From the IMG/VR virus record IMGVR_UViG_3300037311_000474, positions 1 to 40,221 of that record: a stretch of DNA of 40,221 bases. One strand, given 5' to 3'. Below the pieces are notes generated by a model. The model saw nothing but the letters and a program-made list of their open reading frames with translations, ran no database searches and was not told the origin of the DNA. A program made the translations under genes and the position numbers. Source of the stretch: a virus. Its lineage: Duplodnaviria > Caudoviricetes. This document shows positions 1-26,244 of this stretch, piece after piece. The stretch's first letter is position 1, and the number at the start of each line of letters is the position of its first letter.

Positions 1-1035
1 TCACGGCGTGATCCTGTCCAGCGGGCTTACAGTGCCTCGTGCTGCCACAGATCCGACGACGTGTGTGTAGATCGTCGTCGTCTCGATGTCCTTGTGGCCC
101 AGGAGCTCCTGAATCGTGCGCAGATCGGTACCGGCCTGCAGTAGGTGTGTCGCGAAGCAGTGGCGCAGCGTGTGCGGCGAGGCTGGTTTGCCGATGCCTG
201 CGGCTTGGCTGGCGCTCTTCATGGCCCGCTGCACGGTCCAATCAAAGATGTGGTGTCGCCGATGCTCGCCAGTCTCGGGATCGACGTGATAGCCCTCAGT
301 GGCAAACACGTACTGCCAAGCCCATTCGCTGCCGGCATTCGGATACTTGCGAGCCAAGGCATGCGGCAGGCCGACGCTGGCGTGTCCAGTGGCAAGGTCC
401 AAGTGATGCCAGCGGCGCCGCTCTTCGAGCAGCTCGGTCAGGCGTGATACCAGGCAGCGCGGCACCATGGTGACGCGGTCCTTGTCTCCTTTCCCGCCGC
501 GGACGGTCAGTCGCAGCTGTGGCAGGTCCAGATCCTTGACCCGGAGGTTCTGACCTTCGGCCAAACGCAAGCCGGTGCCGTACAGCAGCTCAAGGAACAG
601 CCTGGCCCGGCCTTGGACGCGCGCCAGCAGAGCCTGGGTCTCCTGTACCGAAAGCACGACGGGGAGCCTCACCGACTGCTTGGCCCGAACGATGCCGTCG
701 ATCCAGCCAATGTCCTCTTCGTACACCTTCTGGTACAAGAACAGAAGCGCCGCCAGTGCTTGGCGTTGGGTGCTGGCTGACACCTTGCGCTCGGTGGCCA
801 GCCAACTCAAGAAGTCGCGAACCTCGGTGTGTCCAAGCTCACGCGGCGGTCGCCCCGCCCAGTGCGCGAACAGCTTGATCCAGTGCCAGTACGCGGAGAA
901 GGTGTGCCGGCTGTAGTGGCGCACTGCGCAGGCGGCCTGCACTGCCTCTCGAAGCGTGCGAGGCCGCGCGTCGCATAACGCCGGCGCGGCGCCGGTCATA
1001 ACGACGGGCTGTGCAGGTGCGACAAGGGCTTGCAT
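1..1035 (-). CDS. intI: Integron integrase (tyrosine recombinase, IntI family)
   Basis: N-terminal HYSxxTxxAYxxW. Box I LLYGTGLR, GGKGDKDR. IntI-specific insertion VGLPHALARKYPNAGSEWAWQYVF. Box II HTLRHCFATHLL...IQELLGH...TTTIYTHV. Confidence 0.97.
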   Translation of the reverse strand: MQALVAPAQPVVMTGAAPALCDARPRTLREAVQAACAVRHYSRHTFSAYWHWIKLFAHWAGRPPRELGHTEVRDFLSWLATERKVSASTQRQALAALLFLYQKVYEEDIGWIDGIVRAKQSVRLPVVLSVQETQALLARVQGRARLFLELLYGTGLRLAEGQNLRVKDLDLPQLRLTVRGGKGDKDRVTMVPRCLVSRLTELLEERRRWHHLDLATGHASVGLPHALARKYPNAGSEWAWQYVFATEGYHVDPETGEHRRHHIFDWTVQRAMKSASQAAGIGKPASPHTLRHCFATHLLQAGTDLRTIQELLGHKDIETTTIYTHVVGSVAARGTVSPLDRITP

Positions 1036-1046
1036 AGCTCGCCGAT

Positions 1047-1087
1047 GGTGTTATCCGACTTGGCTGTCTGCCGAATTCACGTTAGGC
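1047..1087 (+). other. attI: attI-like site, core GTTAGGC at 1081-1087 (crossover G/TT at 1081/1082)
   Basis: GTTRRRY 46 bp upstream of the intI start, with no upstream RYYYAAC partner. GTTAGGCC complements GGCCTAAC of the first attC. An extra GTTATCC lies at 1050-1056. The left boundary is approximate. Confidence 0.75.
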
Positions 1088-1365
1088 CCCGCGAGTTTGC
1101 GGCCCGCGTCAATCAGTGCGTTCATGCCTTCGCCGCCATCCTCGAAGTCCTCCAGATCCGCCACCGCCTGCAACGGCACCAGTGCGACGTTGATCCACGT
1201 CCGCAGAACGTCAGCTTCTCCGCGCAGCCGCTGAATCTCGTCACCATCGGCCTCGATGCGGTCTGCCGCTTGCCGGGCCCGGCTCACAAACTGTCGCAGC
1301 GTCATCGGGTCTGGGCTTTCCGGCATCGGCATGCGCAGCACGCCAAGCAGCATCACATCGCTCAT
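1051..1365 (-). CDS. Cassette 1 hypothetical protein; reads through attI
   Basis: 104 aa, GGAG RBS, phage-like AADRIEA...EIQRLR motif. The stop is 15 bp before the intI start. Confidence 0.75.
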   Translation of the reverse strand: MSDVMLLGVLRMPMPESPDPMTLRQFVSRARQAADRIEADGDEIQRLRGEADVLRTWINVALVPLQAVADLEDFEDGGEGMNALIDAGRKLAGPNVNSADSQVG

Positions 1366-1391
1366 GCTTTTTCTCCGGTTGGTTACGGCTG

Positions 1392-1494
1392 GCCTAACTG
1401 GTCGCTCAAGCGGCGACCCAGCACGGCGGGTTAGGTTTCCTTGGTACTCGTAGGCCTCGGCGCCGTGCAGGTCGCCTTAGCTCCTACGTTAGGC
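1392..1494 (+). repeat. attC: attC site 1 (103 bp, repeated family)
   Basis: GCCTAAC-N5-GCTCAAGCGGCGACC...GGTCGCCTTAGC-N6-GTTAGGC, with the extrahelical base in the left L box. Confidence 0.95.
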
Positions 1495-1857
1495 CTTACC
1501 GGGCCGCGCACGGGCGAAGGCGCCCACGCAACTCGTGTCGCTCTTGGCCTGCTGCCTCAGTTCGGCGGCCGTGGTCACTCGCGGAGCGGCATTCGTCGCG
1601 GCCTCTTCCCTGCGCGCATCCACAGCTTCGCCGAGGAACTGGAACGGGTGAACCCATCGCGCCAGCCCGGTGGCGACGGTGTGCTCGGCCAGCCACCGGA
1701 AACGCTCGGCATCTGCCGCGTAGGTCTCGGCTGCCTTCGCAAGCTCGCCGAGCAGCTCGCCGGCTTTCTCGGTGTGCTCAATGGTCCCGAAGGCCAGCGG
1801 GTGCGAGGTCATGCTCATCGCAAGTTGCCTCGCTTCTTCCAGTTTCTGCTTATCCAC
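1489..1857 (-). CDS. Cassette 2 phage hypothetical protein (Ead/Ea22-like DAERFRWL motif)
   Basis: 122 aa. The TAA stop lies inside the R' box of attC1. Confidence 0.7.
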   Translation of the reverse strand: MDKQKLEEARQLAMSMTSHPLAFGTIEHTEKAGELLGELAKAAETYAADAERFRWLAEHTVATGLARWVHPFQFLGEAVDARREEAATNAAPRVTTAAELRQQAKSDTSCVGAFARARPGKA

Positions 1858-1903
1858 GTCGTTTAGTCCTAGTACGGTTGCATTGCGCGCTTCGGCTACA
1901 GGG

Positions 1904-1955
1904 GCCTAACACTTCGTTCCAGCCGACCTACGGCGGCTGAACTCGGGCGTTGGGC
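1904..1955 (+). repeat. attC: attC site 2 (52 bp, very short)
   Basis: GCCTAAC ACTTC GTTCCAGCCG ACCTACGG CGGCTGAAC TCGGGC GTTGGGC. Confidence 0.9.
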
Positions 1956-2278
1956 GGCTTGCTGTCTGCCGAGGCTGCGGCCTCCTCGACGATCTGCCGC
2001 CGAATCAGGGCGCACTTATCGTCGCCCTCCCACAAACAGCAGATGTCCCAAACTTGGCGCCGCGAAACGCTGTAGCGCTTGCCGCTGAATTGCAAACTGA
2101 TGCCCAGTTTCACCGCCAGCCGCAGCGCATCGCCGTCGTCTTCCAGCGGGTTCCACGGCTCTTGCACGCCGACCAGCAGCAGGCCGCGCCCGTCGTCGCT
2201 CCAGCGCCCAACGCCGTAGCCTGCCGCCTTCGCCGCCTTCTCCACCAATCGCATATCGCGCAAGCTATCCATGCTCAC
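1928..2278 (-). CDS. Cassette 3 phage hypothetical protein
   Basis: AAGGAG RBS. AAKAAG...WNPLEDDGDALRLAVKL resembles phage early hypothetical proteins. Ends inside attC2. Confidence 0.8.
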   Translation of the reverse strand: MSMDSLRDMRLVEKAAKAAGYGVGRWSDDGRGLLLVGVQEPWNPLEDDGDALRLAVKLGISLQFSGKRYSVSRRQVWDICCLWEGDDKCALIRRQIVEEAAASADSKPPNARVQPP

Positions 2279-2301
2279 TCCTTCTCGCTTCGGATACGGC
2301 C

Positions 2302-2374
2302 GCCCAACTGCTCGCCCAAGGCCGACCCACTCCGGCCTGCGGCCTACGTGGTCGCCTTGCCTCGGGCGTTAGGC
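2302..2374 (+). repeat. attC: attC site 3 (73 bp)
   Basis: GCCCAAC...CCAAGGCCGACC...GGTCGCCTTG...GTTAGGC. Confidence 0.88.
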
Positions 2375-2375
2375 G

Positions 2376-2600
2376 TCAGCGCAACTCTTTCAGCGTGCTG
2401 GCGTCGTAGCACTTGAAGCCTTCCCATGCCCATGTGCCGCGCAGCCGTTTCCCGCCTTTGGCCTCGCAGTCGGCCTTTGCCGTAACTGCTCCGGTCAGCG
2501 TGATCGCAATCACCGCCAGCGCCACCACGATGAATGCTGCCTTGAGTTGATCTCTGCCAGTACACATGACGCCTAACCCTGCGTTCGAGCGGACGGCCAA
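2376..2600 (-). CDS. Cassette 4 small membrane or exported protein (TTG 2600 inside attC4, or ATG 2567)
   Basis: Hydrophobic AAFIVVALAVIAITLTGAV followed by a Cys pair (CEAKGG...FKC). Confidence 0.65.
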   Translation of the reverse strand: MAVRSNAGLGVMCTGRDQLKAAFIVVALAVIAITLTGAVTAKADCEAKGGKRLRGTWAWEGFKCYDASTLKELR

Positions 2601-2657
2601 TGGCCGTCCTTAGTTGTTGAAACGTCAAGCGGGCCTCCGCTCAACTCCACGTTAGGC
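2571..2657 (+). repeat. attC: attC site 4 (87 bp)
   Basis: GCCTAAC CCTGC GTTCGAGCGGACGGCC...GGCCTCCGCTCAAC TCCAC GTTAGGC. Confidence 0.93.
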
Positions 2658-2936
2658 GCTCGCAAAATCCTTCATCACCAACTCCGCAGCGCCTTCGGGC
2701 AGCAGTTCTGTGCACGTCGAATACTTAGCGTCCATCCATGGCTGTGCGGTGTCCGCGATCCTGGCGCGCAGGAACAAGCCTCTGTTCTCGTCGCCAGCTT
2801 CAGCGTGCGCCAGCGCTCGCGCTTCGGCCTCGGTTTCCGCGCGCACCACAAAGCCGAATGCCTTGTCGTACCACGGTTCCCACGGGTCGTCGTTCTTTGC
2901 CAGCCCGTCCACCGGGCGCAGCAGCCATAGCTTCAT
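2652..2936 (-). CDS. Cassette 5 phage hypothetical protein
   Basis: 94 aa, AAGGAG RBS, YDKAFGFVVRAETEAEAR motif. The stop lies in R' of attC4. Confidence 0.85.
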   Translation of the reverse strand: MKLWLLRPVDGLAKNDDPWEPWYDKAFGFVVRAETEAEARALAHAEAGDENRGLFLRARIADTAQPWMDAKYSTCTELLPEGAAELVMKDFASA

Positions 2937-2957
2937 CGTGTTTCTCCTTTAGTCCGC

Positions 2958-3060
2958 GCCTAACTGTTCGCTCAAGCGGCGACCCAGCACGGCGGGTTAG
3001 GTTTCCTCGGTACTCGTAGGCCTCGGCGCCGTGCAGGTCGCCTTGGCTCCTGCGTTAGGC
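2958..3060 (+). repeat. attC: attC site 5 (103 bp; about 4 mismatches to attC1)
   Basis: Near-identical to 1392-1494. Confidence 0.95.
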
Positions 3061-3386
3061 CGTACAAGGGCGCGCAAAGCCTTCCATGCTTCACAGTAGC
3101 GGCGCGTCCGTCGGTAAAGCGCGGCTTCGTTCTCTTGTTGCGTGCCGTTCAGGCCGCTGGCGCCGTTGTATTCGTCGTGCGCGGCAACAAACTCGGCCAC
3201 AACTGCGCGCAACCGCTCGATCTCGTCGGCCGCCTCGGTCAACAGCGGGTCTGGACTGTCGCGAAGTCCATCAAAGCCAAATAGCTCTTCGCCCTGCGCC
3301 GCTTCGCGCATCCGCTCAAGCATCGGCCTAACAGGCAAGTCAACCTGACCTGCGTCGGCGTTCGGCTTTTGTTCGGTATCAGGCAT
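2997..3386 (-). CDS. Cassette 6 phage hypothetical protein; starts in attC6, ends in attC5
   Basis: AAGGAGG RBS and ATG inside the attC6 loop. LLTEAADEIERLR motif. Confidence 0.75.
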   Translation of the reverse strand: MPDTEQKPNADAGQVDLPVRPMLERMREAAQGEELFGFDGLRDSPDPLLTEAADEIERLRAVVAEFVAAHDEYNGASGLNGTQQENEAALYRRTRRYCEAWKALRALVRPNAGAKATCTAPRPTSTEET

Positions 3387-3423
3387 TTTCACGCCTCCTT
3401 GTCAGGTTACTGGCGCGTTCGGC
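3326..3423 (+). repeat. attC: attC site 6 (98 bp, R' = GTTCGGC)
   Basis: GCCTAAC AGGCAA GTCAACCTGAC...GTCAGGTTAC TGGCGC GTTCGGC. Confidence 0.85.
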
Positions 3424-3424
3424 C

Positions 3425-3736
3425 TCACGCGGTACGCGCTGCGGCGTGCTGGCGCTTGATCCAGTCGGCCCACTCGGCGGCAAACTGCTCGCTGCCAGCC
3501 TTCCACGTTTCGTAACCGTGCGTCCACTCAACCACCACGGCGCGCGCAGCAGGCAATTCGTCGCCAGCCGCTTCGCAAATCCATCGGTTGGTGACGGTGG
3601 CCGCAAATTCGGCCAGGGGCTTGCTGGGGGCCGGAATAAGATCGTCCGGCCCCTCAATGTGCACAGCCCAGCACTTGATGCCGTCAAATGTTTCGCGTAT
3701 CGCTTTAGACAGCGGGCCCTCGGTTTCGTTGCTCAT
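3425..3736 (-). CDS. Cassette 7 phage hypothetical protein
   Basis: 103 aa, AAGGA RBS, WAVHIEGPDDLIPAPS motif. Confidence 0.8.
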   Translation of the reverse strand: MSNETEGPLSKAIRETFDGIKCWAVHIEGPDDLIPAPSKPLAEFAATVTNRWICEAAGDELPAARAVVVEWTHGYETWKAGSEQFAAEWADWIKRQHAAARTA

Positions 3737-3767
3737 GCTTACGTCCTTTTGATTGCAGATAACACCA

Positions 3768-3870
3768 GCCGAACTGGTCGCTCAAGCGGCGACCCAGCAC
3801 GGCGGGTTAGGTTTCCTCGGTACGCGTAGGCCTCGGCGCCGTGCAGGTCGCCTTAGCTCCTACGTTGTGC
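3768..3870 (+). repeat. attC: attC site 7 (103 bp family; R'' GCCGAAC, R' GTTGTGC)
   Basis: Near-identical core to attC1 and attC5. Confidence 0.93.
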
Positions 3871-3871
3871 T

Positions 3872-4489
3872 TCACGCGGCGCACGCAGCGGGCTCCGTCT
3901 CGCGCCGCAGTTCCGCGATGAACAGCGGCCACAGCGTGCGCCAAAAGTTCACCGCAAATGGCTTCGGCCGCGTCTGGATGTACTCCCACGGCTCGCTGAG
4001 AAACTTGGCCGCATCGGGCTTACTGTCAAGGCGCAGGCTTTGCGCAGCATCGTCCAGCGCGCGCACCCAGTCGTCCGGCGAGCTGGTCGCCCACTGTTCG
4101 CACTCCTTCAGGGCGTCCCACAAGGCGCGGGCGTCTTCCTTGCTCAGCCGAGTGTGCTTGCGGTTCTCAATTACCCGCTCGCGCATCGCCCGCATGCTGC
4201 CGTTGCCGTCGAACTGCTCCAGCTTGGCGCCCAAGAACTTGCCGAAGGCATAGTCGAACTCGACCTCCTGCAGGAACTCCTTGAACGGGTTGGCGCAGGC
4301 CGTCCAGATGTAGCCCCAGGTGCCGAAGCTCGATTGAATGGTGATCTCGCCGCAGTAGTAGGTACCCTCGTGCGGCGTGCCAACGTTGGCGCGGCGGTCC
4401 CAGCAGTGAAGCGTGATGTTTGCCCACTCACCGCCGCGCTTGCCGTCTCGCACTTCGTAGCACTCGCGCACGCTCTTGGTCACTGGCAT
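3872..4489 (-). CDS. Cassette 8 phage hypothetical protein (205 aa from MPVTK)
   Basis: Protein-like composition (GEITIQSSFGTWGYIW), with AAGGA upstream of ATG 4489. Confidence 0.8.
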   Translation of the reverse strand: MPVTKSVRECYEVRDGKRGGEWANITLHCWDRRANVGTPHEGTYYCGEITIQSSFGTWGYIWTACANPFKEFLQEVEFDYAFGKFLGAKLEQFDGNGSMRAMRERVIENRKHTRLSKEDARALWDALKECEQWATSSPDDWVRALDDAAQSLRLDSKPDAAKFLSEPWEYIQTRPKPFAVNFWRTLWPLFIAELRRETEPAACAA

Positions 4490-4519
4490 TCCGTCTTTCC
4501 TTCGCTTCGGATAAGTGAA

Positions 4520-4581
4520 GCACAACTGGTTAATCGAGAGGGACGCCCGCAGGCGGGCGCCCCTCATTGCCGGCGTTAGGC
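4520..4581 (+). repeat. attC: attC site 8 (62 bp), last site of the array
   Basis: GCACAAC TGGTT AATCGAGAGGGACGCCCG CAGG CGGGCGCCCCTCATT GCCGGC GTTAGGC. Confidence 0.85.
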
Positions 4582-4582
4582 T

Positions 4583-4864
4583 TCACGCCATAGCCCCAAC
4601 ACGCGCCGCGTACTGCCACACGGAGGTGGCCTGGCGCAGCGCGTTGCTCATGGGGGAGTCGGCGGCAGCGTAGTCGTCGCCGGTGCGCACTGCGCGGCCG
4701 CTGGCCACGAGGGACTGCAGGGCGCTGTGCACCTGTGCGCGGCTGAGTGCCACAACGGTGAGCACTGCGTCGATCGTCATCGATCCGTGGTCGTGCAGGG
4801 CCTGCAGCACAACCGGCTGAGTGGCCTTGATGGCAATGCGGCGGGCCGCAGTCTTGCGGGGCAT
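4583..4864 (-). CDS. Small winged-helix/HTH DNA-binding protein
   Basis: VVLQALHDHGSMTIDAVLTVVALSRAQVHSALQSLVASG pattern, GGAGG RBS. Confidence 0.6.
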   Translation of the reverse strand: MPRKTAARRIAIKATQPVVLQALHDHGSMTIDAVLTVVALSRAQVHSALQSLVASGRAVRTGDDYAAADSPMSNALRQATSVWQYAARVGAMA

Positions 4865-5064
4865 CAGGCACCTCCTGCCTGCGCGCGCGGCGCATCGTCG
4901 CGGCCGAGCTGGCCGATGCAGACCGTGGTGTCTCGGCCGACGTTGCCGGCCAGCGCACCGACAACTCGACGCTGCACCCGCTGGATCGCGTCCGCCACCT
5001 CGCCCTGGTTGGCGGCCAGGCGGACGACGGCGGTGGGGCCGTCGTGGAGGTGGGCGGTGGTCAT
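4864..5064 (-). CDS. Early hypothetical protein
   Basis: TGATG overlaps with both neighbours. Confidence 0.55.
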   Translation of the reverse strand: MTTAHLHDGPTAVVRLAANQGEVADAIQRVQRRVVGALAGNVGRDTTVCIGQLGRDDAPRAQAGGA

Positions 5065-5327
5065 CAGGCTTCCGTCGTGGTGGGGCTGAGATCGTTCGCA
5101 GCGGCCAGGCGCGCGTCGAACGGTGGGTGGGCGGCGCGCTGCTGTTGGCGGTACAGCGCGAGCGCCATGCCGCTCAGGACCTGGCCCTTGATCGGGTCGT
5201 TCATGGCGGCGGTGATGCTCTTGAACGCGCCCGCCGGGTCGATGCGGCGCAGCGCCTCGGCGAAGAGGGCCTCGTGTGTCTCGGGCGTGAGGCGCACGCG
5301 GTCGGCGGTGGTGCGGCGTGCGTTCAC
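5064..5327 (-). CDS. Early hypothetical protein
   Basis: GTGA overlap. C-terminal FDARLAAAND motif. Confidence 0.55.
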   Translation of the reverse strand: MNARRTTADRVRLTPETHEALFAEALRRIDPAGAFKSITAAMNDPIKGQVLSGMALALYRQQQRAAHPPFDARLAAANDLSPTTTEA

Positions 5328-5542
5328 CGCTGCCACCACAGAGCAATGGCCAGCCGAACGCGCTCCAGAAGCGGCAGGGGGCGGCAGGGCGTGATGGCTG
5401 CGCGCCCGGTACCGGGCACGGTTGGCGGCTCGGATGCTTCTTCCAGGAGCCCGGGCTGCGTCATGGACTCGTCGAAGGCCGGCACCTGGCAGCGGCGCTG
5501 CGGCCAAAGGCTGGGCCGGCTGAGCGGCTTGACGTTGGGCAT
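5324..5542 (-). CDS. Early hypothetical protein
   Basis: Tightly coupled within the leftward operon. Confidence 0.45.
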   Translation of the reverse strand: MPNVKPLSRPSLWPQRRCQVPAFDESMTQPGLLEEASEPPTVPGTGRAAITPCRPLPLLERVRLAIALWWQR

Positions 5543-5544
5543 GA

Positions 5545-5712
5545 TCAGACCCCCTGAGCCAGCAGCCAGCTGATGGCTGCGAACGCGCCGACGCCGGCCA
5601 CCCGCCAGCTCCAGCGCTCGAGCAACTCCACCACCCGGCGCTCGCGCCGCGGGTCGAGCTCGGTGTGCTGCGCCATTGCGAACGCGGCGCGGCGCTGCGG
5701 TGTGTCGTTCAT
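5545..5712 (-). CDS. Small membrane protein
   Basis: GGAGG RBS, ATGA overlap, C-terminal hydrophobic helix. Confidence 0.55.
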   Translation of the reverse strand: MNDTPQRRAAFAMAQHTELDPRRERRVVELLERWSWRVAGVGAFAAISWLLAQGV

Positions 5713-6038: not shown

Positions 6039-6226
6039 CGCGCCCACCTACGCTGGTTGGCGGAGAGCGGTCCGCGCGCTACATTGCGATTTCCAACCCG
6101 CAGTGTCCGCTTGCAAACCCGTCTCTCCATGAACGCGCCGCGTGAGAAGCCCCACCGGCAATGGGAACCGCCTGTGCCAGCGCCGCCGGCTCGGCCGCCC
6201 GCCCCGCCACCAGCCCCAGCAAAGCG

Positions 6227-6721
6227 ATGACCATGGACCGCAACGACACCACGCTCACCAACACCACCCGCACGCACGGCCAGGCCGTCGCCGAGGTTCA
6301 GTACGCCGTCGAGTTCGGCCGGCTGAACGAGCGCTTCTGGCAGCGGCTGGACACTGTGCTGAACCTGATGCAGGTATTGGCCGGCGCATTGGCCTTGGCA
6401 GGAGCGTTCTCCGCCGGGCAGTGGCTGCCCGTGGCCGGGGTGGTGTTGGCGGTGGTGTCGGCCCTGCAGATCACGCTGGCGCCTGGCCGCCGCGCGGCGG
6501 GCTTCCTCGTCGCGCGGCGCGACTTCAGCGCGCTGCTGATGCGGGCCTGGAAGCTGGACCCGGCAGACCTGGACGCCGAGCTCGAAGCGCTGCGCGCGCA
6601 GGCGCCGCAGGGCCTGGAGCTGCTGAGTGCCCCGGCCTTCAACAACACCAGCCGCCGCAACGGGCACGACACGACGCTGCCCGAGCGCTGGCCGCACCGC
6701 CTGGCGCGCGCGCTGGCCTGA
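6227..6721 (+). CDS. Two-TM membrane protein, SLATT-like architecture
   Basis: Helix, two TM segments, then a helical tail. Antisense to the early operon. Confidence 0.6.
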   Translation: MTMDRNDTTLTNTTRTHGQAVAEVQYAVEFGRLNERFWQRLDTVLNLMQVLAGALALAGAFSAGQWLPVAGVVLAVVSALQITLAPGRRAAGFLVARRDFSALLMRAWKLDPADLDAELEALRAQAPQGLELLSAPAFNNTSRRNGHDTTLPERWPHRLARALA

Positions 6722-7145: not shown

Positions 7146-7185
7146 AATCTACAACTGTTGTGGCCTGTGCGTCAACAGGTGTTGT
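7146..7185 (-). promoter_or_regulatory. PL-like promoter with OL operators
   Basis: Minus strand TTGACG-N18-TAGATT, overlapped by TCAACAGGTGTTGT (7172-7185) and ACAACTGTTGT (7151-7161). These match the cI/cro operators. Confidence 0.75.
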
Positions 7186-7948: not shown

Positions 7949-8809
7949 TCAACCTGCCCAGTCGCTGCCGAGCTGCCCGGTCGCGCGTGCGGCGCGGGCG
8001 ATGCGGTCGAGGTAGTCGGCCATGTCCTCGGCGTTCTCGGCCGCGACAAGGCGGCCGGCGGTGCTGAGCAGGTCCACGCTGCGGGCGGCGTGGCCGGCGC
8101 CGCTGCCGCTGACGACAACGTAGCACTGCGTCTTCTGGCCGAAGTGCTCGCGCGCCGCGCGCAGCACTAGGCACTTGGCCTGGGCCTCGAAGATCTTGCC
8201 GCGAACGCTCTCTTCCGCGACCTCGAAGTCCACCGTCTCGGTGATGTGCATCACCGAGTTCTGAAGCGCGAACTCCGCATTCAGCCCGTGCTTGGCGCTC
8301 ACCGGAAAGTTGCGTACCACCTTGTGGGCCGCGATGTCATCGGCGTGCCTGCCCATGATGCCCATGTTCTCGAACTGCCGGCGCAGGCGCGCCCGGGTGT
8401 GCTGGCGCACGCGGTGCACCTCGGGCGCCATGGCCGGCTTTTCTGCGGCCGGGGGCGGCAGCACCGACTCGGCCATCACCGCCTGCACCTGGGCATCGAA
8501 CGTGGCCTGGTTGCTGTAGGCGAAGCTGCCTTCGAACTCATGCAGCGCCAGCGCGCCCTTGCTGCCGGCCAGCACCTCGCGTACTGCGGCAAGGCTGTCG
8601 CACTGGGCCAGGTGCTCGCGCAGGTTGGCGCCCAGGCGCCGCATGCGCCCCTCGGGCGAGCTGGACACGGCGGCGAGCTTCTCGCTGCTGGGCAGCGTGG
8701 CGACGGTCCAGTGCCCGTCTGCCGCCTGAACGACGGCGCCGACGCAAAGCACGTCGATGCGTTCCGCATCGGGGCGAAGGGTCAGGAGGCTGTAGGTGGC
8801 TGTTTTCAT
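7949..8809 (-). CDS. DUF3037-like protein, partner of the HipA-like kinase
   Basis: N-terminal YSLLTLRPDAERIDVLCVGAVV. ATGA-coupled to the kinase. Confidence 0.75.
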   Translation of the reverse strand: MKTATYSLLTLRPDAERIDVLCVGAVVQAADGHWTVATLPSSEKLAAVSSSPEGRMRRLGANLREHLAQCDSLAAVREVLAGSKGALALHEFEGSFAYSNQATFDAQVQAVMAESVLPPPAAEKPAMAPEVHRVRQHTRARLRRQFENMGIMGRHADDIAAHKVVRNFPVSAKHGLNAEFALQNSVMHITETVDFEVAEESVRGKIFEAQAKCLVLRAAREHFGQKTQCYVVVSGSGAGHAARSVDLLSTAGRLVAAENAEDMADYLDRIARAARATGQLGSDWAG

Positions 8810-9519
8810 GGCAGGGCGGATTGTGCGGCGGCCAGCCGGCGCGCGCGAGCGATGGACACCCACCACTGGCGTAACAGCATGCGCGGCTGGGGCGCCAGCC
8901 AGGCGGGCGGCATGGGCGCAAGCACGTCACGCATCCACTCATCCGGCAGCGCCTGGATGGTGCCCAGCACGTCCACGGGGCGTCGATAGGGCATTGTGTC
9001 CTGGCTCAGCAGCAGGCGCAGGCACTGCATGGTGTTGCAGGCCGGCATCGGCAGGCCCGGCAGCGGCCAGCCCAGGACCAGCAGGGCGTGGCTGAAGTCG
9101 ATGACGCGGGCCACCACTTCGCCGTCGAGCTCGAGGTACAGGAAGTTGTCGTGGTGCCGATCCACGTTGTGGGCAAAAAGGTCCAGCGCGTGTGTCTTGG
9201 CGAAGACATCGGCGTTGCTGATGCGCCCGCGCGCCTCCACGAACGACACGCTGCCGCCCTGCCACTGCGAGCCGAAGTAGGCCACGCCCGGCTGATCGAA
9301 GCGCTCCACCACGCTGAAGGGAGGCACCGGCAGCCTGCACGCCTGCGCCAGGTGCGAGCAGATCCACTCGCTGGCCGGCACCATGGGGTGCTTGCCTTGG
9401 CCCTTGCACAGCCAGCGGTGCGTGGTGACGTTGTCGACGCCGATGAAATCGGCAGCGGCGGTGGAGGGCGGGGGCTTGATGCGATGGCAGATGACAGGCA
9501 GCAGACTGGTCTGGATCAT
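8806..9519 (-). CDS. HipA-like (HipA_2/CtkA-type) Ser/Thr kinase
   Basis: WLCK...SEWICSHLAQACRLPVP, NVDRHHDNFL catalytic loop, IDFSHA metal-binding motif. Confidence 0.85.
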   Translation of the reverse strand: MIQTSLLPVICHRIKPPPSTAAADFIGVDNVTTHRWLCKGQGKHPMVPASEWICSHLAQACRLPVPPFSVVERFDQPGVAYFGSQWQGGSVSFVEARGRISNADVFAKTHALDLFAHNVDRHHDNFLYLELDGEVVARVIDFSHALLVLGWPLPGLPMPACNTMQCLRLLLSQDTMPYRRPVDVLGTIQALPDEWMRDVLAPMPPAWLAPQPRMLLRQWWVSIARARRLAAAQSALP

Positions 9520-9995
9520 TCCCTGGGGCGCTCGGTCGTGCCGAGCTGTTGTGGTTGGAATCTGGGTGACTCGATGCTCGCCACTGGCGTGGTGGCCTTT
9601 GCGACGTCCGCGGCCACGGGATCGAGCAGCTCGGCCACGCGGTCGCGGTAGGGCTGCGCGCCCGTCACCAGCAGCGGCAGAAGCCGCTCAAGCTCGGCCC
9701 GGGCCGGGCACGCGGCTATGGCGTCGAGGACTACGGGCAGCGCGTTGCGCAGCGCTGGCGCTGGCGCCGGGGTGACAGTTGCCGACTCAAGATCGCGGGG
9801 GCCGATGCCGGACAGCAGCCACCGTAGGTGGACCTGAAAGTAGTCCGCCAGCGGTTGCGCGTGCACGGACCGCACCGAGTTGCGCTTGATGAGAGCGCTC
9901 AGGATTTGCTGCTCAATGCCTAGATCACGGGCCACCTGAGCTTGGGAAATCGCTCGGTCGTCCAGCAGGAGTTGGAGGCGTGAGCCGAGAGACAT
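9516..9995 (-). CDS. cI: CI-like XRE repressor (no S24 peptidase domain visible)
   Basis: LGSRLQLLLDDRAISQAQVARDLGIEQQILSAL...WLLSGIGP HTH, divergent from cro. Confidence 0.85.
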   Translation of the reverse strand: MSLGSRLQLLLDDRAISQAQVARDLGIEQQILSALIKRNSVRSVHAQPLADYFQVHLRWLLSGIGPRDLESATVTPAPAPALRNALPVVLDAIAACPARAELERLLPLLVTGAQPYRDRVAELLDPVAADVAKATTPVASIESPRFQPQQLGTTERPRE

Positions 9996-10077
9996 GCCTT
10001 GAGTCTGACAACTCGTGTTGTCGGAGGCAAACAACGTTGGTTGCACATGTGGCAACAGTTGTTGTAGGCTACGCGCC
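9996..10077. promoter_or_regulatory. OR region: three 14-bp operators with PRM and PR
   Basis: ACAACTCGTGTTGT (10008-21), ACAACGTTGGTTGC (10031-44), GCAACAGTTGTTGT (10052-65). PR is TTGCAC-N18-TAGGCT. PRM (minus strand) is TTGCCT-N17-CAGACT. Confidence 0.8.
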
Positions 10078-10359
10078 ATGACGCCACTCGCCCAAGCCAT
10101 CGAAGCCGTCGGCAGCCAGTCCGCGCTTGCAAGGAAGTGCGGCGTGGTTCAGCAGCACGTCTGGAATTGGCTGAACCGGGACGGCGCGCCTCCAGCCGAG
10201 CGCTGCCCCGACATCGAGCGCGCCACGGCGGGGCAGGTGACGGTGGAGGAGCTGCGGCCGGACGTGCGCTGGACGCGGGTGGCCGATGCGGAGTGGCCGC
10301 ACTCGGCCGGGCGGCCGTGCATTGATGTGGCGGCGCGGGAGGCGGTGAATGCAGGTTGA
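10078..10359 (+). CDS. cro: Cro-like (YdaS family) regulator
   Basis: AIEAVGSQSALARKCGVVQQHVWNWL...IERATAGQVTVEELRPDV. Confidence 0.9.
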   Translation: MTPLAQAIEAVGSQSALARKCGVVQQHVWNWLNRDGAPPAERCPDIERATAGQVTVEELRPDVRWTRVADAEWPHSAGRPCIDVAAREAVNAG

Positions 10360-20335: not shown

Positions 20336-22315
20336 ATGCCGCTTACGCGCAACCGCAACCGCCCTTACGAAACCGACGACAACAACGGGTTGCCGCTGCA
20401 GCCGGGCGCTCGCGTGTATGAGGGCGCTGCGATGGGCTCCACGAGCAGCGGCGTGCGCCCGCTGGTCTTGGGCGATCCGTTCGCCGGGTTTGCGGTGGCG
20501 GCCAGCACGCCGCAGGACACCGCTTGCCGGGTGCGGACCCGCGGGCAGGTGCTGCTCAACGTAGCCGGCGTCGTCGCAGCGTCCGATTTCGGCAAACTCG
20601 TGTACGCCACCGATGACGACACATTCACGCTGACGCCGGGCCAAAGTGTTGTCGGACGCGTCATGCGGCATGTAAGCGGATCTCTGGCTTTGGTGCAGTT
20701 CGACGCTGCCTTGCCGGTTTTCAACGCTCAGCAGCAAATCGTTCTTGCCCCATCCGGAGGCGACGACGCTTTGCTGATGCAGCAATTCGTCAACGACATG
20801 GCCGCTTCGAAGCGACCGGCGGTTCTTGGTGCCGGCGACTTCATCATCGGTTCGCCGATGACCTGGAGAAGCCAACAGCGGCTCGGCAAGTGGGACAACA
20901 AAGGCATCGGTCTGCGTGTCCTGGGTCAGGGGCCCGAGAACACGAGACTGCTGTCTGCGATCGTTGGCAACGCGCCCATGATCTCGGTCAGTGCGCCGTC
21001 CTCGGCCGGCATCGGCAAGCGCAACTACCTCACCGAAATCGGCGGGATGTCGTGGTTGAGGGCGCCCGAAGGGGTCTTGATCCCGGCTGGCACCACCAGC
21101 GGCGAGGCGTTTCGCGCGATCCCAATCGTCGACACCTACGAGGTCAACGTCGCTGCACTGTTCCGCAACCTTTACATCGACGGCTTCGATCACTGCATCA
21201 CGCTCTCGGACAACACCATCGCCGAGCTCGAGGGCGTCTGGTTCATGGAGTTCTTGACCGGCGTGCGCCTGGGCTTCAACTGCGACGTGATCAAGATGCG
21301 CCGCTGCTGGTGGGGCAGTGAGCAGTTCGGAACCTCGTACCGCAACAACGCCGTGGCGGTGCAACCCGGGTTCGACGACGGGCGCGGCAACGGCAACGCC
21401 GGGCAAAACTGCATCGAGCTGGACCACTGCGCGATGGCCAAGATCGGCTGCGGAGTGGAATGTGCGGATGGCAGCACGGCCAGCGGCATCCTGTTCCACG
21501 AGGTGTTCTTCGAGGGTGTTCGGCAGTATTTTCACCACCTTGGCAACACCACGCAGGATTCGATCGTCACCTTCTCGCACTGCCACTTCTCCTCGGTCAC
21601 GATCAACGACACCACGCAGCACGACCCGACGCTGGCGGGCTACGAGGCCAAGATCCAGTTCGACGGTGACATCGCCGTCAGCGGCGGCAAGCGGCCGATC
21701 CTCACGCTGCGCAACTGCGTCTCCGACACCAACGCGCAGCCGGGCAACGCCTGGATCAGCTTCAACAACCGTGAGGGTTTCATCACTCTCGAAAACAACC
21801 GGCTGCGGCCCTCGGCTTCTTTTGGCATTGCACGTTGCATCCGCACCGGTTGGCAGACCTGGAAGAGCTTTCCGGTGGACTCTGCGCAGCAGGGTGGCAG
21901 TTTCCAGTTGGGCGATTCGCAGCAGGCCGGCCTGGGGATGCTCGCCGGACGCCCGATGCAGGTCAGCGCCACGATCACGCCGGGTTCGACATACGACCTG
22001 GACGTGCTTGCTGGCACCGAGTTCGCGCTCACGCTGCCGGACGGCGACTGCACGATCAACGTCTTCAACTTCACCGGCACCCCGCCGAACCGGATCGTCT
22101 CGGCTCTCACCGAGTTGAGCATTGTCTTGATCCTGCCCGCCAGCGTTACCGCCACACGCACGATCACCTGGGGCTCGCGGCTCAAGATGAACGCAGCGAC
22201 GTTGACCTACGGGGCTGCCGACGGCAACAAACGCGCCGTGTTCAAGGTCAAAGGCGCGGGCTTCGGCAACACGATGCTGTTGTCCACCGCTGGGCCAGTT
22301 TTTGCTTCAGCCTGA
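20336..22315 (+). CDS. Head-decoration-like N-domain fused to a putative beta-helix (pectate lyase-like) domain
   Basis: First ~120 aa paralogous to 22345 and 27426. APSGGDDA...QQF...VLGAGDF resembles a beta-helix cap. Confidence 0.65.
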   Translation: MPLTRNRNRPYETDDNNGLPLQPGARVYEGAAMGSTSSGVRPLVLGDPFAGFAVAASTPQDTACRVRTRGQVLLNVAGVVAASDFGKLVYATDDDTFTLTPGQSVVGRVMRHVSGSLALVQFDAALPVFNAQQQIVLAPSGGDDALLMQQFVNDMAASKRPAVLGAGDFIIGSPMTWRSQQRLGKWDNKGIGLRVLGQGPENTRLLSAIVGNAPMISVSAPSSAGIGKRNYLTEIGGMSWLRAPEGVLIPAGTTSGEAFRAIPIVDTYEVNVAALFRNLYIDGFDHCITLSDNTIAELEGVWFMEFLTGVRLGFNCDVIKMRRCWWGSEQFGTSYRNNAVAVQPGFDDGRGNGNAGQNCIELDHCAMAKIGCGVECADGSTASGILFHEVFFEGVRQYFHHLGNTTQDSIVTFSHCHFSSVTINDTTQHDPTLAGYEAKIQFDGDIAVSGGKRPILTLRNCVSDTNAQPGNAWISFNNREGFITLENNRLRPSASFGIARCIRTGWQTWKSFPVDSAQQGGSFQLGDSQQAGLGMLAGRPMQVSATITPGSTYDLDVLAGTEFALTLPDGDCTINVFNFTGTPPNRIVSALTELSIVLILPASVTATRTITWGSRLKMNAATLTYGAADGNKRAVFKVKGAGFGNTMLLSTAGPVFASA

Positions 22316-22344
22316 ACGCATATTTTTTCGACAAGGCAGATTCA

Positions 22345-23061
22345 ATGGCACTGGCGCGCAACCGCAATCGTCCATACGAGACCGATGACATCAACGGTTT
22401 GCCGTTGCTGGCTGGAGCGCGTGTCTTTGAAGGTGCGGCAATGGGCGCGACTGGCGCTGGCGTTCGGCCTTTGGAGCAGGGTGATCGCTTTGCAGGTTTT
22501 GCGATGGCAGCGAGCGTGCCGTCGGATGCCTTCTGTCAGGTGCGCACGCGCGGCCAGGTTGTGCTGAGCGTGGCCGGCGTTTCAGGAGGCGCTGACTTCA
22601 ACCGGCTTGTTTTCGCTTTTGACGACGACACCTTCAGCCTGACGGCCAACGCAAGCCCTGTAGGTCGCGTCATGCGGCATGTAACCGGTACCTTTGCGGT
22701 TGTGCAGTTCGACGCCGCAGGCCCAGAGCAGCTGTCGGCGTCCGAAGCCGCGACTGTCCGCGCCTGGGCGCTGGAGCCTGTGGTCGACGCCACCTCGCGC
22801 GCCATCACCGCTGCCGACAACGGCCGGCGCCTGGCGCCAGCGGCCGGCATCACCTACACCATCCCGGCGGGACTGAGCCCGAAGCCGGCTTTCAGCGTGC
22901 AGTGCCCGCCCAGCGGCACGGTGACGATCGCCGTGAGCGGTGGCGCCACCATCAACGGCGCCGGAACCGCGCTCACGCGGGCTCGCACCTCCAACCGCGT
23001 GGGCTTCGTGGTCGAGCCGTACACGGACGCTGGGGACGCCTACGGCGTGAGCGGGGCCTGA
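22345..23061 (+). CDS. Second head-decoration (DUF2190-like) paralogue
   Basis: MALARNRNRPYETDD...DDDTFSLT. Confidence 0.7.
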   Translation: MALARNRNRPYETDDINGLPLLAGARVFEGAAMGATGAGVRPLEQGDRFAGFAMAASVPSDAFCQVRTRGQVVLSVAGVSGGADFNRLVFAFDDDTFSLTANASPVGRVMRHVTGTFAVVQFDAAGPEQLSASEAATVRAWALEPVVDATSRAITAADNGRRLAPAAGITYTIPAGLSPKPAFSVQCPPSGTVTIAVSGGATINGAGTALTRARTSNRVGFVVEPYTDAGDAYGVSGA

Positions 23062-23065
23062 CGCT

Positions 23066-24658
23066 GTGGCAACCGCAGTCGCAGACGTCTACACGGCCGC
23101 GGTCGGGCCGGTGTTCGCTGGCATGGCCGATCCCAGGGCGACTGCGATCTCGATCACATCGCCCAGCCCTGCCAGCGGGGTGGTGGGAGTGCAGTCAGGT
23201 GTGTGGACCGTGCAGGTCAACGGGCAGCTGGACGCGGACCTCACCGTCACGCCCAGTGCCGGCGCTGGCGGAGGCACGTTCGCTCCGAGCTCGATGCTGA
23301 TCGCAGCATCGGCCACACCCGCGGCGGCGAGCTTTCGGTACACGCCAGCCAGCACCGGAGCGAAGTTGATCACGCTGGCCAACGACCGGGGATTGAGCAA
23401 CCCGGCGCCGGCGGCCTATACCTCGCTGGCGGTGCAGCCAAGCGCGCGCGTCGCACTCATGGGCGACAGCCTGACCGACCGGCGCGAGATCGCGCCCACG
23501 CGCAACTGGAGCCCGTTTTTCTGGAGCAACGGCCTGGGCACCAACGGCGGCCAGCAGCTGGTGCAGAACTGTGGCGTGAACGGCGACACCGTGGGTCAGA
23601 TGCTGGCCCGTGTGAACAACAGCTTCGCAGATTCCAGTCCCGGGCTAGCCGGCATCGCGCCGCTGGGCCATGTCTACATCCGTGCCGGCACCAACGACGC
23701 CAGAGCCCTCACGCCGATCGGCACTCTGGCGGCAGACCTGACCTCGTTGCTGCAGGCCTGCAAGAGCTACTGCACGAAGGTCATCATCCTCGCGGTGCCA
23801 CCGATGGGCCCAAGCGAGAGCAACTTCGCGGCCAAGAACGCGGTGGTCATCACCTACAACGCCTGGCTGGCGCAGTACGCGGCAGACAACGCAGCGGACT
23901 TCCTCTTCGTTGACGACTGCGTCAACCTGCGCGACGGCGCCGGGGCGCAGCTTGCGGGCTACTTCAACGTCGACGGCGTCCACAACGAGGGTCGAGCGAC
24001 CTGGCGCCAGGGTGTGGATGGCGCGGCGGCGATGGCCTCCTACTTTGCGACCTTCGCGCCGTACCCGAGTCCGCTGGTGCTGACTGCCGCGGACGTGCAC
24101 CCGACAACGGCCCAGTACGTGCCCAACGTGCTGATGGCCGGCAGCGGCGGGACGGCCGGCGCTGGCGTCACCGGCCAGGTGGCCGACTCGTGGACCATCG
24201 CTCAGACGGCCTCCGGCAACGAGGCCACGGTGAGCAAGGTCGCCGCGGATGTCGGCGACGCGAACCAGACGCCCTGGCAGCGCATCACGCCGACCCTCAT
24301 CACCAATGGCGGCGGGTTCCGCATGTCGATCCCCTTCGGCATCTCCAACCTGACCGCGGTGCAGACCGCGCTGGAGATGGTGATGGAAGTGCGGCTGGTG
24401 AACTGGAACGCGGCCAACTTCTCGGCCCTGCGTGCCTACGTGAACACCAGCATCGGCAAGGTCACGTGGAACCTCGATTTGAAAATGTCTGGCCCGGAGA
24501 CGCTCAACCACACGCTGGTCCTGCGGCATGCCCAGCCGCGCAACACCGCCACCACGCCCAGTAGCCCGGCCCTGTTCATCGACCTGCTTGCTGTGGTAGC
24601 CGCCAGCGGTGCGATGGGTTCGATCGATGTCCGAAACGCCAGCGTCAGGCAGCTTTGA
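23066..24658 (+). CDS. Virion-associated SGNH/GDSL hydrolase with Ig-like N-terminus
   Basis: GDSLT, G, GTND and DGVH blocks. Confidence 0.85.
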   Translation: MATAVADVYTAAVGPVFAGMADPRATAISITSPSPASGVVGVQSGVWTVQVNGQLDADLTVTPSAGAGGGTFAPSSMLIAASATPAAASFRYTPASTGAKLITLANDRGLSNPAPAAYTSLAVQPSARVALMGDSLTDRREIAPTRNWSPFFWSNGLGTNGGQQLVQNCGVNGDTVGQMLARVNNSFADSSPGLAGIAPLGHVYIRAGTNDARALTPIGTLAADLTSLLQACKSYCTKVIILAVPPMGPSESNFAAKNAVVITYNAWLAQYAADNAADFLFVDDCVNLRDGAGAQLAGYFNVDGVHNEGRATWRQGVDGAAAMASYFATFAPYPSPLVLTAADVHPTTAQYVPNVLMAGSGGTAGAGVTGQVADSWTIAQTASGNEATVSKVAADVGDANQTPWQRITPTLITNGGGFRMSIPFGISNLTAVQTALEMVMEVRLVNWNAANFSALRAYVNTSIGKVTWNLDLKMSGPETLNHTLVLRHAQPRNTATTPSSPALFIDLLAVVAASGAMGSIDVRNASVRQL

Positions 24659-24661
24659 GCC

Positions 24662-25852: not shown

Positions 25853-26244
25853 GCGGCATCCTGCGCAACCTCCGCGAGCAGCTGGGCAGCGGCACGCTCA
25901 ACAGCGGCCTGCGTTACGCCGGCTACACGGGTGCGCAGATCCAGGCCGCGACAGCGACTGGTCATGCCGGGGCCGGCGTTGGCATCAACGACTCGCTCGA
26001 AGCGACCAAGCAGTACCGCTTCCGCCCGGCCCTGGGACCGGCGTGGCCAGGGCTGTTTCGCGATGACGGAGCGTTTCGGGCCAACACTGCCGTGAGCACC
26101 ACGTACCAACTCTACGAGGACAACGTGCTGGTCGGCTCGGCGGCCATCTCGGTGCAAATCGGTGCCGCGCCTCCACCGCCACCGCCTGCTGCCGCCAGCC
26201 TGGCCGGGCTGAGCCCGCGGCAGCGGAGGCTCGCCACCACGTAG
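25849..26244 (+). CDS. Hypothetical protein
   Basis: 131 aa, ATGA-coupled. Confidence 0.6.
   Translation: MSGILRNLREQLGSGTLNSGLRYAGYTGAQIQAATATGHAGAGVGINDSLEATKQYRFRPALGPAWPGLFRDDGAFRANTAVSTTYQLYEDNVLVGSAAISVQIGAAPPPPPPAAASLAGLSPRQRRLATT

What the first reader, a model, noticed from the sequence alone, without database searches (positions are those of the whole stretch)
1051..4489. Cassette cargo looks like phage early genes, not typical bacterial cassette genes
The cargo carries motifs I recognise from lambdoid accessory proteins (DAERFRWL, EAADEIERLR, WNPLEDDGDALRLAVKL, WAVHIEGPDD). No resistance, GNAT or toxin-antitoxin genes are evident. Most ORFs have their own minus-strand RBS. Inference: a phage-specific pool of reverse-oriented cassettes, which could also be a source of the orphan cassettes seen in bacterial integrons.
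Basis: partly seen in the sequence, partly recalled or inferred. Interest (0 to 1): 0.8.

Follow-up and report, generated by a model that had tools for sequence, protein, structure and literature searches.

The report
Phage integron with backward gene cassettes
This freshwater temperate phage carries a complete gene-shuffling integron whose eight cassettes hold small phage-type genes mounted back to front; the phage's own early promoter likely reads them, and the arrangement marks a whole phage lineage that likely swaps these cassettes, occasionally with bacterial integrons.

Summary
Confirmed and wider than reported. The window is a lambda-like provirus. Its left end holds an integron integrase (TIGR02249, 390 bits against a cut-off of 265), an attI site and eight attC-bounded cassettes (1082-4575). 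All eight genes lie antisense to the canonical attC polarity and run with intI and the early operon.

A contig from another study lacks exactly cassette 8 (711 nt), with no mismatches on either side (one 151-nt contig, depth 2). Related integrases with reversed arrays form one clade (29 rows, bootstrap 98). A separate phage integrase lay downstream of intI in 18 of 18 selected loci.

Cargo is phage-like but mostly unnamed: 2 of 8 genes have strong PHROG hits, and none matches a resistance, toxin-antitoxin or defence profile. No homologue lay in a forward cassette. Two reversed cassettes in bacterial chromosomal-type arrays have reversed relatives in viral contigs, so exchange seems to occur but to be rare. 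The 'lambdoid Ea22/Ead-like' naming was not confirmed. Expression and integrase activity are untested.

Phage-borne integrons are published (Qi 2023); eight literature searches found no reversed lineage. This scan noted similar arrays on four other genomes.

The parts
1..1035 (-). Integron integrase IntI, 344 aa, with the integron-specific insertion and the catalytic R-K-H-R-H-Y residues
   Evidence: TIGR02249 390 bits, cut-off 265; aligned with class 1, Vibrio and Shewanella IntI
1050..1087 (+). attI site, crossover G|TTAGGC at 1081/1082; upstream GTTATCC repeat and GAATT box
   Evidence: Conserved in 7 relatives up to the GTT, divergent after it; the motif found 22 viral stretches, several heading reversed arrays
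1082..1488 (+). Cassette 1; reversed ORF 1051-1365 (104 aa) reads through attI and stops 15 nt before the intI start
   Evidence: no profile hit
1392..1494 (+). attC1, 103-nt family shared with attC5 and attC7 (93% and 87% over 119 nt)
1489..1949 (+). Cassette 2; reversed ORF 1489-1818 (109 aa, DAERFRWL); stop codon formed by the core site
   Evidence: 157 homologues with mosaic N-termini
1904..1955 (+). attC2 (52 nt)
1950..2368 (+). Cassette 3; reversed ORF 1928-2272 (114 aa), stops inside attC2
   Evidence: phrog_5086 E 7e-18; 27 isolated phage records; 0 of 25 IMG/VR homologues beside attC
2302..2374 (+). attC3 (73 nt)
2369..2651 (+). Cassette 4; reversed ORF 2376-2600 (74 aa, hydrophobic stretch), likely start and RBS inside attC4
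   Evidence: weak PHROG hit only (E 0.017)
2571..2657 (+). attC4 (87 nt)
2652..3054 (+). Cassette 5; reversed ORF 2652-2936 (94 aa); stop codon formed by the core site
   Evidence: 18 IMG/VR homologues, 2 beside reversed attC
2958..3060 (+). attC5 (103-nt family)
3055..3417 (+). Cassette 6; reversed ORF 2997-3386 (129 aa, EAADEIERLR), RBS and start inside attC6, stop inside attC5
   Evidence: no profile hit
3326..3423 (+). attC6 (98 nt)
3418..3864 (+). Cassette 7; reversed ORF 3425-3736 (103 aa, WAVHIEGPDD)
   Evidence: 5 homologues at 67-80% besides itself, unnamed; Atlas hits under 0.9
3768..3870 (+). attC7 (103-nt family)
3865..4575 (+). Cassette 8 (711 nt); reversed ORF 3872-4489 (205 aa), Phage_phiTE_072 family PF26211; absent with exact ends in one contig of run X4
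   Evidence: phrog_13202 E 1.5e-23; PF26211; junction contig
4520..4581 (+). attC8 (62 nt), distal end of the array, abutting the leftward early operon (HTH gene 4583-4864)
7146..7175 (-). Candidate leftward early promoter (TTGACG-18-TAGATT) with a CAACNGTTG palindrome at 7152-7160; the only other copy lies between cI and cro (10053-10061)
   Evidence: consensus match only, function inferred

Best explanation
The left arm of this temperate phage holds a complete integron (intI, attI, eight attC-bounded cassettes) whose genes all lie antisense to the attC sites, and the phage's leftward early transcript likely reads the cassettes and then intI. Shown: attC polarity is canonical towards attI, so cassettes would enter at 1081/1082 and leave by attC x attC recombination at G|TT as in bacterial integrons; one contig from another study lacks exactly cassette 8. 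Each cassette brings its own ribosome-binding site, in two cases inside the attC loop, and core sites or attC arms supply several stop codons. Inferred: there is no Pc promoter; a repressor-controlled pL about 2.6 kb beyond the array drives the genes, so cargo and integrase are made after infection or induction and not in the lysogen. IntI does not integrate the phage, since relatives keep a separate phage integrase just downstream. The result would be a site-specific exchange system for small early accessory genes, shared across a phage lineage. By analogy with early genes of other phages, the cargo most likely acts on the host or on competing elements, but no single function was identified.
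For: IntI passes TIGR02249 with catalytic residues intact. 8 attC, 0 in 20 shuffles. Core/R'' complementarity 8 of 8 here, 24 of 28 in other reversed arrays and 35 of 41 in forward arrays. Bottom strands of phage attC fold more stably than top strands, mean -1.5 kcal/mol (n=63) against -1.8 in chromosomal sites (n=71). attI is conserved up to the GTT in 8 of 8 aligned sequences. The rest of the window is a full lambda-like siphovirus: repressor, cro, primase, terminase, portal, capsid, tail, lysis. Reversed-array IntIs form one clade of 29 rows (SH-aLRT 86, bootstrap 98) with no forward array inside. In 24 clade loci (77 attC) genes are reversed 67 to 1 by codon model and 43 to 6 by longest ORF (28 undecided); non-clade genome loci are forward 73 to 7 (13 undecided). 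A second, phage-type integrase followed intI in 18 of 18 selected loci. A 151-nt contig of run X4 matches 3792-3862 and 4574-4653 without mismatch and skips 711 nt, the length of cassette 8. Cassette 8's gene sits beside reversed attC in 8 of 21 metagenome loci at E under 0.1 and in a ninth weakly, never forward. Promoter-like site and shared palindrome.
Against: The window itself shows no second integrase, because the record ends at the intI stop codon. The X4 junction is a single contig at depth 2.1 with 4 ambiguous bases; it could predate insertion or be a chimera. PHROG enrichment of reversed over forward cargo is modest: 21 of 87 against 5 of 65 at E 1e-10 (p 0.009, threshold chosen after seeing the table; one of the 21 is from the chromosomal-type locus L064) and 30 of 87 against 14 of 65 at E 1e-3 (p 0.10). 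In the window, top strands fold slightly more stably than bottom strands for 4 of 8 sites. The palindrome count alone is weak (8 of 100 shuffles reach 2), and a convergent plus-strand gene (6161-6721) lies between the candidate promoter and the array. Several reversed arrays have a truncated intI or none (L183/L189, L190, L196, L185/L198, L195). The 18 downstream integrases were picked from loci already judged phage-type; L023/L026 and L054 show none nearby.
Confidence: 0.8

Rival explanations
1. The array is a real but mostly spent structure. Cassettes were shuffled in the past, many attC sites now decay into ordinary operon spacers, and IntI is seldom made or active.
For: Truncated or missing intI beside reversed arrays; a collapsed attC in L204 and a degenerate remnant in L159; most homologues of cassettes 3 and 5 lie in plain operons (0 of 25 and 2 of 18 beside attC); intI has no clear ribosome-binding site.
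Against: Intact IntI, 8 of 8 perfect core/R'' pairs, an exact cassette-8 deletion form with no other difference in another study, and different arrays behind close IntI relatives.
Confidence: 0.1
2. This IntI recombines the other attC strand, or both strands. The mobile unit is then the gene plus the attC downstream of it in reading direction, and the cassettes only look reversed.
For: The attC body beside R'' differs between homologous cassettes: cassette 5 against L158/L159, cassette 3 in run X3 and cassette 8 against L201/L207/L209. Top and bottom strand energies are within 2.6 kcal/mol for all 8 window sites. Some wild-type attC sites recombine the top strand at low frequency (PMC5027507, passages).
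Against: The first cassette joins attI without an attC body, the X4 deletion removes the gene with attC8 and keeps the attC7 body, the extra C is in the plus-strand L'' box at all 8 sites, and bottom strands are more stable on average in 63 phage sites.
Confidence: 0.06
3. The integron belongs to the host chromosome and was included in the provirus call because IntI looks like a phage integrase.
For: intI is at the very edge of a record classed as provirus; the identical cassette-7 protein is on a 150,764-nt contig; published phage integrons were largely captured pieces of host integrons (PMC9892861).
Against: The array abuts the early operon with no integrase between. The closest relatives (L001 86%, L003, L004, L006) have a phage integrase beyond intI. 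Chromosomal arrays are forward, and the IntI falls in a clade of mostly viral contigs.
Confidence: 0.04

Closest known systems
Classical integrons (intI, attI, Pc, attC cassettes; class 1 and sedentary chromosomal integrons)
   Same: IntI family integrase, GTT crossover at attI, attC hairpins with R and L boxes and the extrahelical base, canonical geometry of intI against attC, one small gene per cassette.
   Different: Genes are antisense to attC and run with intI; no Pc and no CTGT-N8-ACAG LexA box found; reading frames start and stop inside attC and attI; cargo is phage-type. In classical integrons bottom-strand selectivity serves to place genes under Pc (PMC5027507, passages).
Phage-borne integrons and CALINs of Qi, Rajabal, Ghaly, Tetu and Gillings 2023 (PMC9892861; parts 2-4 of 7 read: methods end, results, conclusion)
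   Same: intI and attC arrays in temperate phage genomes; phage attC sites were shown there to recombine with attI1; DNA methyltransferases among the cargo (also seen here in a relative, L014).
   Different: Their 3 complete integrons and 1 In0 among 10,705 genomes are host Vibrio, class 1 or Shewanella integrons picked up by phages. The parts read describe no dedicated IntI clade, no all-reversed arrays and no place in the early operon.
[quoted passage not shown]
   Same: Cassette genes run in the same direction as intI.
   Different: There the integrase is flipped and genes stay forward to attC. Here intI and attC keep the regular geometry and the genes are flipped inside each cassette. A second phage clade seen here (L029, L031, L038) fits the inverted type.
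Lambdoid left-arm accessory region (ea22/ead, morons) - recalled, not from a call
   Same: Small, mosaic, leftward genes between the immunity region and int; homologues of cassette 2 have interchangeable N-terminal modules.
   Different: Here each gene is bounded by site-specific recombination sites and the phage encodes the recombinase; no Ea22/Ead profile matched.

Membership tests
Integron (complete) | Integron integrase with the family-specific insertion and catalytic residues | tested here: met
   TIGR02249 390 bits over a cut-off of 265; alignment
Integron (complete) | attI site with GTT crossover next to the 5' end of intI | tested here: met
   Conservation ends at G|TT in 8 aligned sequences
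Integron (complete) | Array of attC sites with R''/L''/L'/R' boxes and extrahelical base, all in one polarity | tested here: met
   8 sites, 0 in shuffles. Own model and own scanner; IntegronFinder's attC model was not available
Integron (complete) | Cassettes move as units cut at G|TT | tested here: met
   Core/R'' complementarity 8 of 8; exact 711-nt deletion form, one low-depth contig
Integron (complete) | Cassette genes on the attC top strand, read from Pc | tested here: not met
   8 of 8 genes on the bottom strand; no plus-strand promoter-like site near attI
Integron (complete) | IntI-catalysed recombination and bottom-strand selectivity | not testable with these tools
   Needs a recombination assay; folding bias is only indirect
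Integron (complete) | LexA box at the intI promoter (common, not universal) | tested here: not met
   0 exact CTGT-N8-ACAG in the window; other box types not tested
Inverted-integrase integron | intI on the same strand as the attC top strand | tested here: not met
   intI minus, attC top strand plus
Host integron captured by a prophage (Qi 2023 type) | IntI nested among chromosomal IntIs, with forward host-type cassettes | tested here: not met
   Clade of mostly viral rows with reversed arrays
Ea22/Ead-like lambdoid accessory proteins | Profile or structural match to a named family | tested here: inconclusive
Phage_phiTE_072 (PF26211), cassette 8 | Family match over the whole protein | tested here: met
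   Precomputed PF26211 on 81 of 82 homologues; Atlas 0.93 with 217 shared features; the local Pfam copy gave no hit

The most novel reading that the evidence does not exclude
Phage early operons are cassette factories. The phage IntI drops attC hairpins between ordinary phage genes, or swaps attC bodies at R'', and so turns operon genes into mobile cassettes. These circulate among phages and enter host chromosomal integrons as antisense cassettes. This would be a concrete, testable route for cassette formation. It fits four observations: the same families occur both as plain operon genes and as cassettes, one attC family serves three unrelated genes here, one gene carries different attC bodies in different phages, and two phage-type reversed cassettes sit in bacterial arrays.
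Probability: 0.25. Interest if true: 0.92.

Novelty: new variant of a known kind. Interest (0 to 1): 0.78.

Why it matters
Integrons are known as bacterial devices that place genes under the Pc promoter, and their cargo includes many anti-phage systems. Here a phage lineage has its own integrase clade and cassette pool, wired backwards into the lytic early operon. That gives phage mosaicism a site-specific mechanism and suggests a source for antisense or seemingly empty cassettes in bacterial arrays. How cassettes form is named as an open question in PMC8618304 (passage); gene families found both inside and outside attC bounds make it testable. The arrays are also a ready list of small early phage genes to screen for host-takeover or counter-defence activity.

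Tried and rejected
Rfam found nothing in the window.

tblastn against 50,697 annotated phage records found no match for cassettes 5, 7 and 8 or for the L064 and L073 genes. Cassettes 1, 2, 4 and 6 were not searched there. The array against PLSDB plasmids gave one 56-nt match inside gene 3 and no attC array. The single-sequence scan for cassette 8 in IMG/VR found nothing; the alignment scan found 7 distant loci, none with an adjacent attC.

Structure gave no function. The cassette 8 model (pLDDT 88) had no PDB match and three unnamed viral matches. The cassette 5 model (pLDDT 85) reached Z 4.6 at best, which is background. The Atlas gave only scores of 0.81 for cassette 7.

No RNA holder was listed, so expression is untested. 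Joints and 69 other than the cassette-8 one have sides under 30 nt and were set aside. The X6 joint is the ordinary attC1-cassette 2 junction.

The idea that IntI is the phage's own integrase was rejected because relatives keep a second integrase. My codon model failed on chromosomal cassettes, so a longest-ORF rule was added; it is noisier in GC-rich phage DNA. Of 19 reversed or undecided frames in chromosomal arrays, 1 had a PHROG hit; by eye most of the rest are shadow frames. The covariance model was built from 33 sites of the window and viral loci, so its matches there are partly by construction; matches in genome and cargo loci are independent.

Literature: eight searches found no description of reversed arrays in phages. 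Subscription journals are largely missing from the library, and the supplements of Qi 2023 were not read; one of its CALINs could be of this kind.
Full report
Setting. The window is a whole IMG/VR record classed as a provirus, 95% complete. Right of 4.6 kb it reads as a lambda-like siphovirus: leftward early genes, repressor (9516-10100), cro, a cII-like gene, primase, terminase, portal, capsid, tail and lysis genes. The only recombinase is at 1-1035 on the minus strand. It passes the integron integrase model TIGR02249 at 390 bits against a cut-off of 265 and keeps the catalytic residues and the integron-specific insertion when aligned with class 1, Vibrio and Shewanella integrases.

The array. 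A scanner for R''-L''-L'-R' boxes found eight attC sites between 1392 and 4581, none elsewhere, and none in 20 shuffles at the same score. The 5-nt spacer, the 8-nt L'' box with its extra C and the 7-nt L' box all put the top strand on +. Alignment with seven relatives shows conservation from inside intI up to G|TT at 1081/1082 and divergence after it, which places attI. In 8 of 8 cassettes the opening core site is the exact complement of the cassette's own R'', including the three unusual pairs GTTGGGC, GTTCGGC and GTTGTGC. The same test holds in 24 of 28 cassettes of other reversed arrays and 35 of 41 of forward chromosomal arrays.

The genes. All eight lie on the minus strand, antisense to attC and in line with intI and the early operon. 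They score as phage coding sequence, while the longest plus-strand frame in every cassette scores negative. Genes 2 and 5 use the TTA of the core site as their stop. Genes 3 and 6 stop inside the next attC. Genes 4 and 6 start inside their own attC, and gene 1 reads across attI to stop 15 nt before intI.

What the cargo is. Two of eight genes have strong PHROG hits of unknown function (phrog_5086, phrog_13202); three have weak hits (E 0.017-0.095) and three none. Pfam, NCBIfam and PADLOC give nothing above threshold. Gene 3 has relatives in 27 isolated phage records of Pseudomonas, Acidovorax and Aeromonas. Gene 8 belongs to Phage_phiTE_072. Gene 2 has 157 homologues with interchangeable N-terminal modules; of the 120 listed, 15 begin and 13 end with peptides that look like attC read backwards, by a rough motif count. 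Folding genes 5 and 8 gave no function. In relatives, reversed cassettes include phage PAPS-reductase-like, DHH phosphoesterase and DNA methyltransferase families. Reversed cargo hits PHROGs more often than forward chromosomal cargo: 21 of 87 against 5 of 65 at E 1e-10 (p 0.009; threshold set after viewing) and 30 of 87 against 14 of 65 at E 1e-3 (p 0.10). So 'phage-like' is fair, but it rests more on context than on named families.

Where homologues sit. Gene 3: 0 of 25 IMG/VR loci beside an attC. Gene 5: 2 of 18 beside a reversed attC, plus a degenerate remnant in L159. Gene 8: 8 of 21 metagenome loci beside a reversed attC at E under 0.1 (two are near duplicates), a ninth weakly, none forward; 0 of 7 distant viral loci. 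In L207 the gene-8 cassette sits in another phage integron with different neighbours. Among other loci, 17 of 86 reversed cargo proteins recur in a different phage-type locus, and 0 of 94 hit any of 75 chromosomal-type loci. The same families thus occur as plain operon genes and as reversed cassettes, and were not seen as forward bacterial cassettes.

A lineage. IMG/VR gave 49 loci with a relative of this protein, about 38 of them full-length IntI-like; GTDB gave the best 80 of 570. A tree of 119 integrases put all reversed arrays in one clade of 30 rows (SH-aLRT 96). A second tree of 77 rows, without 13 long or distant rows and with unlabelled genome rows thinned to 14, gave 29 rows at SH-aLRT 86 and bootstrap 98. 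No forward array falls inside. In 24 clade loci with 77 attC sites (a few loci are duplicates), genes are reversed 67 to 1 by codon model and 43 to 6 by longest ORF with 28 undecided. Non-clade genome loci are forward 73 to 7 with 13 undecided. In 18 of 18 selected phage-type loci a gene just downstream of intI is a phage integrase, 16 tyrosine and 2 serine, so the integron lies inside the phage and IntI is not the phage integrase. The window ends at the intI stop, so this could not be seen here. The attI motif alone retrieved 22 viral stretches, including new reversed arrays, some with truncated or missing intI.

Signs of movement. Run X4, from a different study than the probable source run, has a 151-nt contig (depth 2.1) that matches 3792-3862 and 4574-4653 without mismatch and skips 711 nt, exactly cassette 8. 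Other X4 pieces match the phage without differences, so a near-identical phage lacks this cassette at the predicted crossover. It is one contig and cannot tell excision from a state before insertion. Run X3 holds cassette 3 at 8 differences in 361 nt, bounded at its two core sites, with another attC body, and holds the 103-nt attC family joined to other genes. That attC bodies change at R'' is unexplained by the canonical model.

Mechanism. Shown: geometry, sites, gene strand, clade and one exact deletion form. Inferred: expression from a leftward promoter. A sigma-70-like site at 7175-7146 points towards the array and contains a CAACNGTTG palindrome whose only other copy lies between cI and cro, as expected for repressor operators; the count alone is weak. 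No LexA box was found. Cargo and IntI would then be made after infection or induction. [quoted passage not shown]

Exchange with bacteria. Two chromosomal-type arrays carry reversed, RBS-bearing genes: L073 (Thiobacillus MAG) and L064 (Nitrosomonadales MAG). The L073 gene is 70% identical to a reversed cassette in a 41.5-kb viral contig with nearly the same leader. The L064 gene has phrog_24897 (E 7e-17) and relatives at 74% and 59% beside reversed attC sites in viral contigs. I did not annotate those viral contigs further. This is 2 cases among about 90 cassettes scored, and the direction is unknown. It supports occasional exchange, not a general source of forward orphan cassettes.

Comparison with what is known. 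Qi et al. 2023 (PMC9892861; parts 2-4 of 7 read) report 3 complete integrons, 1 In0 and 17 CALINs among 10,705 phage genomes and show that phage attC sites recombine; their complete cases are host integrons picked up by phages. PMC5027507 (passages) states that bottom-strand selectivity serves expression from Pc, which this array does not follow. PMC8618304 (passages) lists cassette formation as open. PMC13323075, PMC13366799 and bioRxiv 10.64898/2026.03.17.712381 (passages) say nothing on reversed arrays. Eight searches found no description of them. Four unchecked notes of this scan report similar arrays on other genomes; I saw them after forming this reading and do not count them as evidence.

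Verdict. The system works like an integron and meets the structural tests except gene orientation and Pc, so it is best filed as a new variant: a phage-resident integron with reversed cassettes. Confidence 0.8, interest 0.78.

Noticed in passing
L028-L031, L034, L036, L038: A second phage IntI clade (support 99). L029, L031 and L038 have attC sites downstream of intI on the same strand, with forward genes where called: a separate way to line cassettes up with a phage operon.
   Followed up: partly
IntI tree, L176 and L119: The class 1 integrase and one Propionivibrio IntI group as sister to the reversed-array phage clade (99/99) in the 77-row tree, but not clearly in the 119-row tree. Sampling was centred on the query.
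   Followed up: no
window 969-1001 and 1050-1059: GTCGCATAAC inside the 5' end of intI is a conserved inverted copy of the GTTAT(C/G)CGAC box of attI in the aligned relatives; possibly an extra IntI binding site for autoregulation.
   Followed up: no
L204 3115-3165; L159 2900-3300: An attC collapsed to its two core sites, fusing two genes into an operon (L204), and a cassette remnant with a degenerate attC in a phage baseplate/tail region with no intI nearby (L159): cassettes can become ordinary genes.
   Followed up: partly
L007 7262-8989: The same two-gene cassette occurs twice in one array, separated by another cassette, as expected from replicative cassette movement.
   Followed up: no
L054 (Denitromonas halophila SFB-3): A cultured isolate with a clade IntI and three reversed cassettes, directly beside host genes that look like phaR/phaB by recall, at a contig edge and with no second integrase.
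   Followed up: partly
L010 10467-14756: Clade IntI followed by a large primase-like gene and an integrase; possibly a satellite rather than a full phage.
   Followed up: no
KX853513 (Virus Rctr41k, L052) 4680-5678: A divergent IntI-like gene (44%) inside a phage operon with methyltransferase genes; my attC model found no site there.
   Followed up: partly
window 7949-9519: Two leftward genes after the repressor (phrog_3162, phrog_5137) that look by recall like a HipA-like kinase with a DUF3037-type partner; not tested.
   Followed up: no
window 20336-26244: Several large unnamed genes, one with a lipase-family PHROG hit (23201-24658), sit between the portal and the head protease genes.
   Followed up: no
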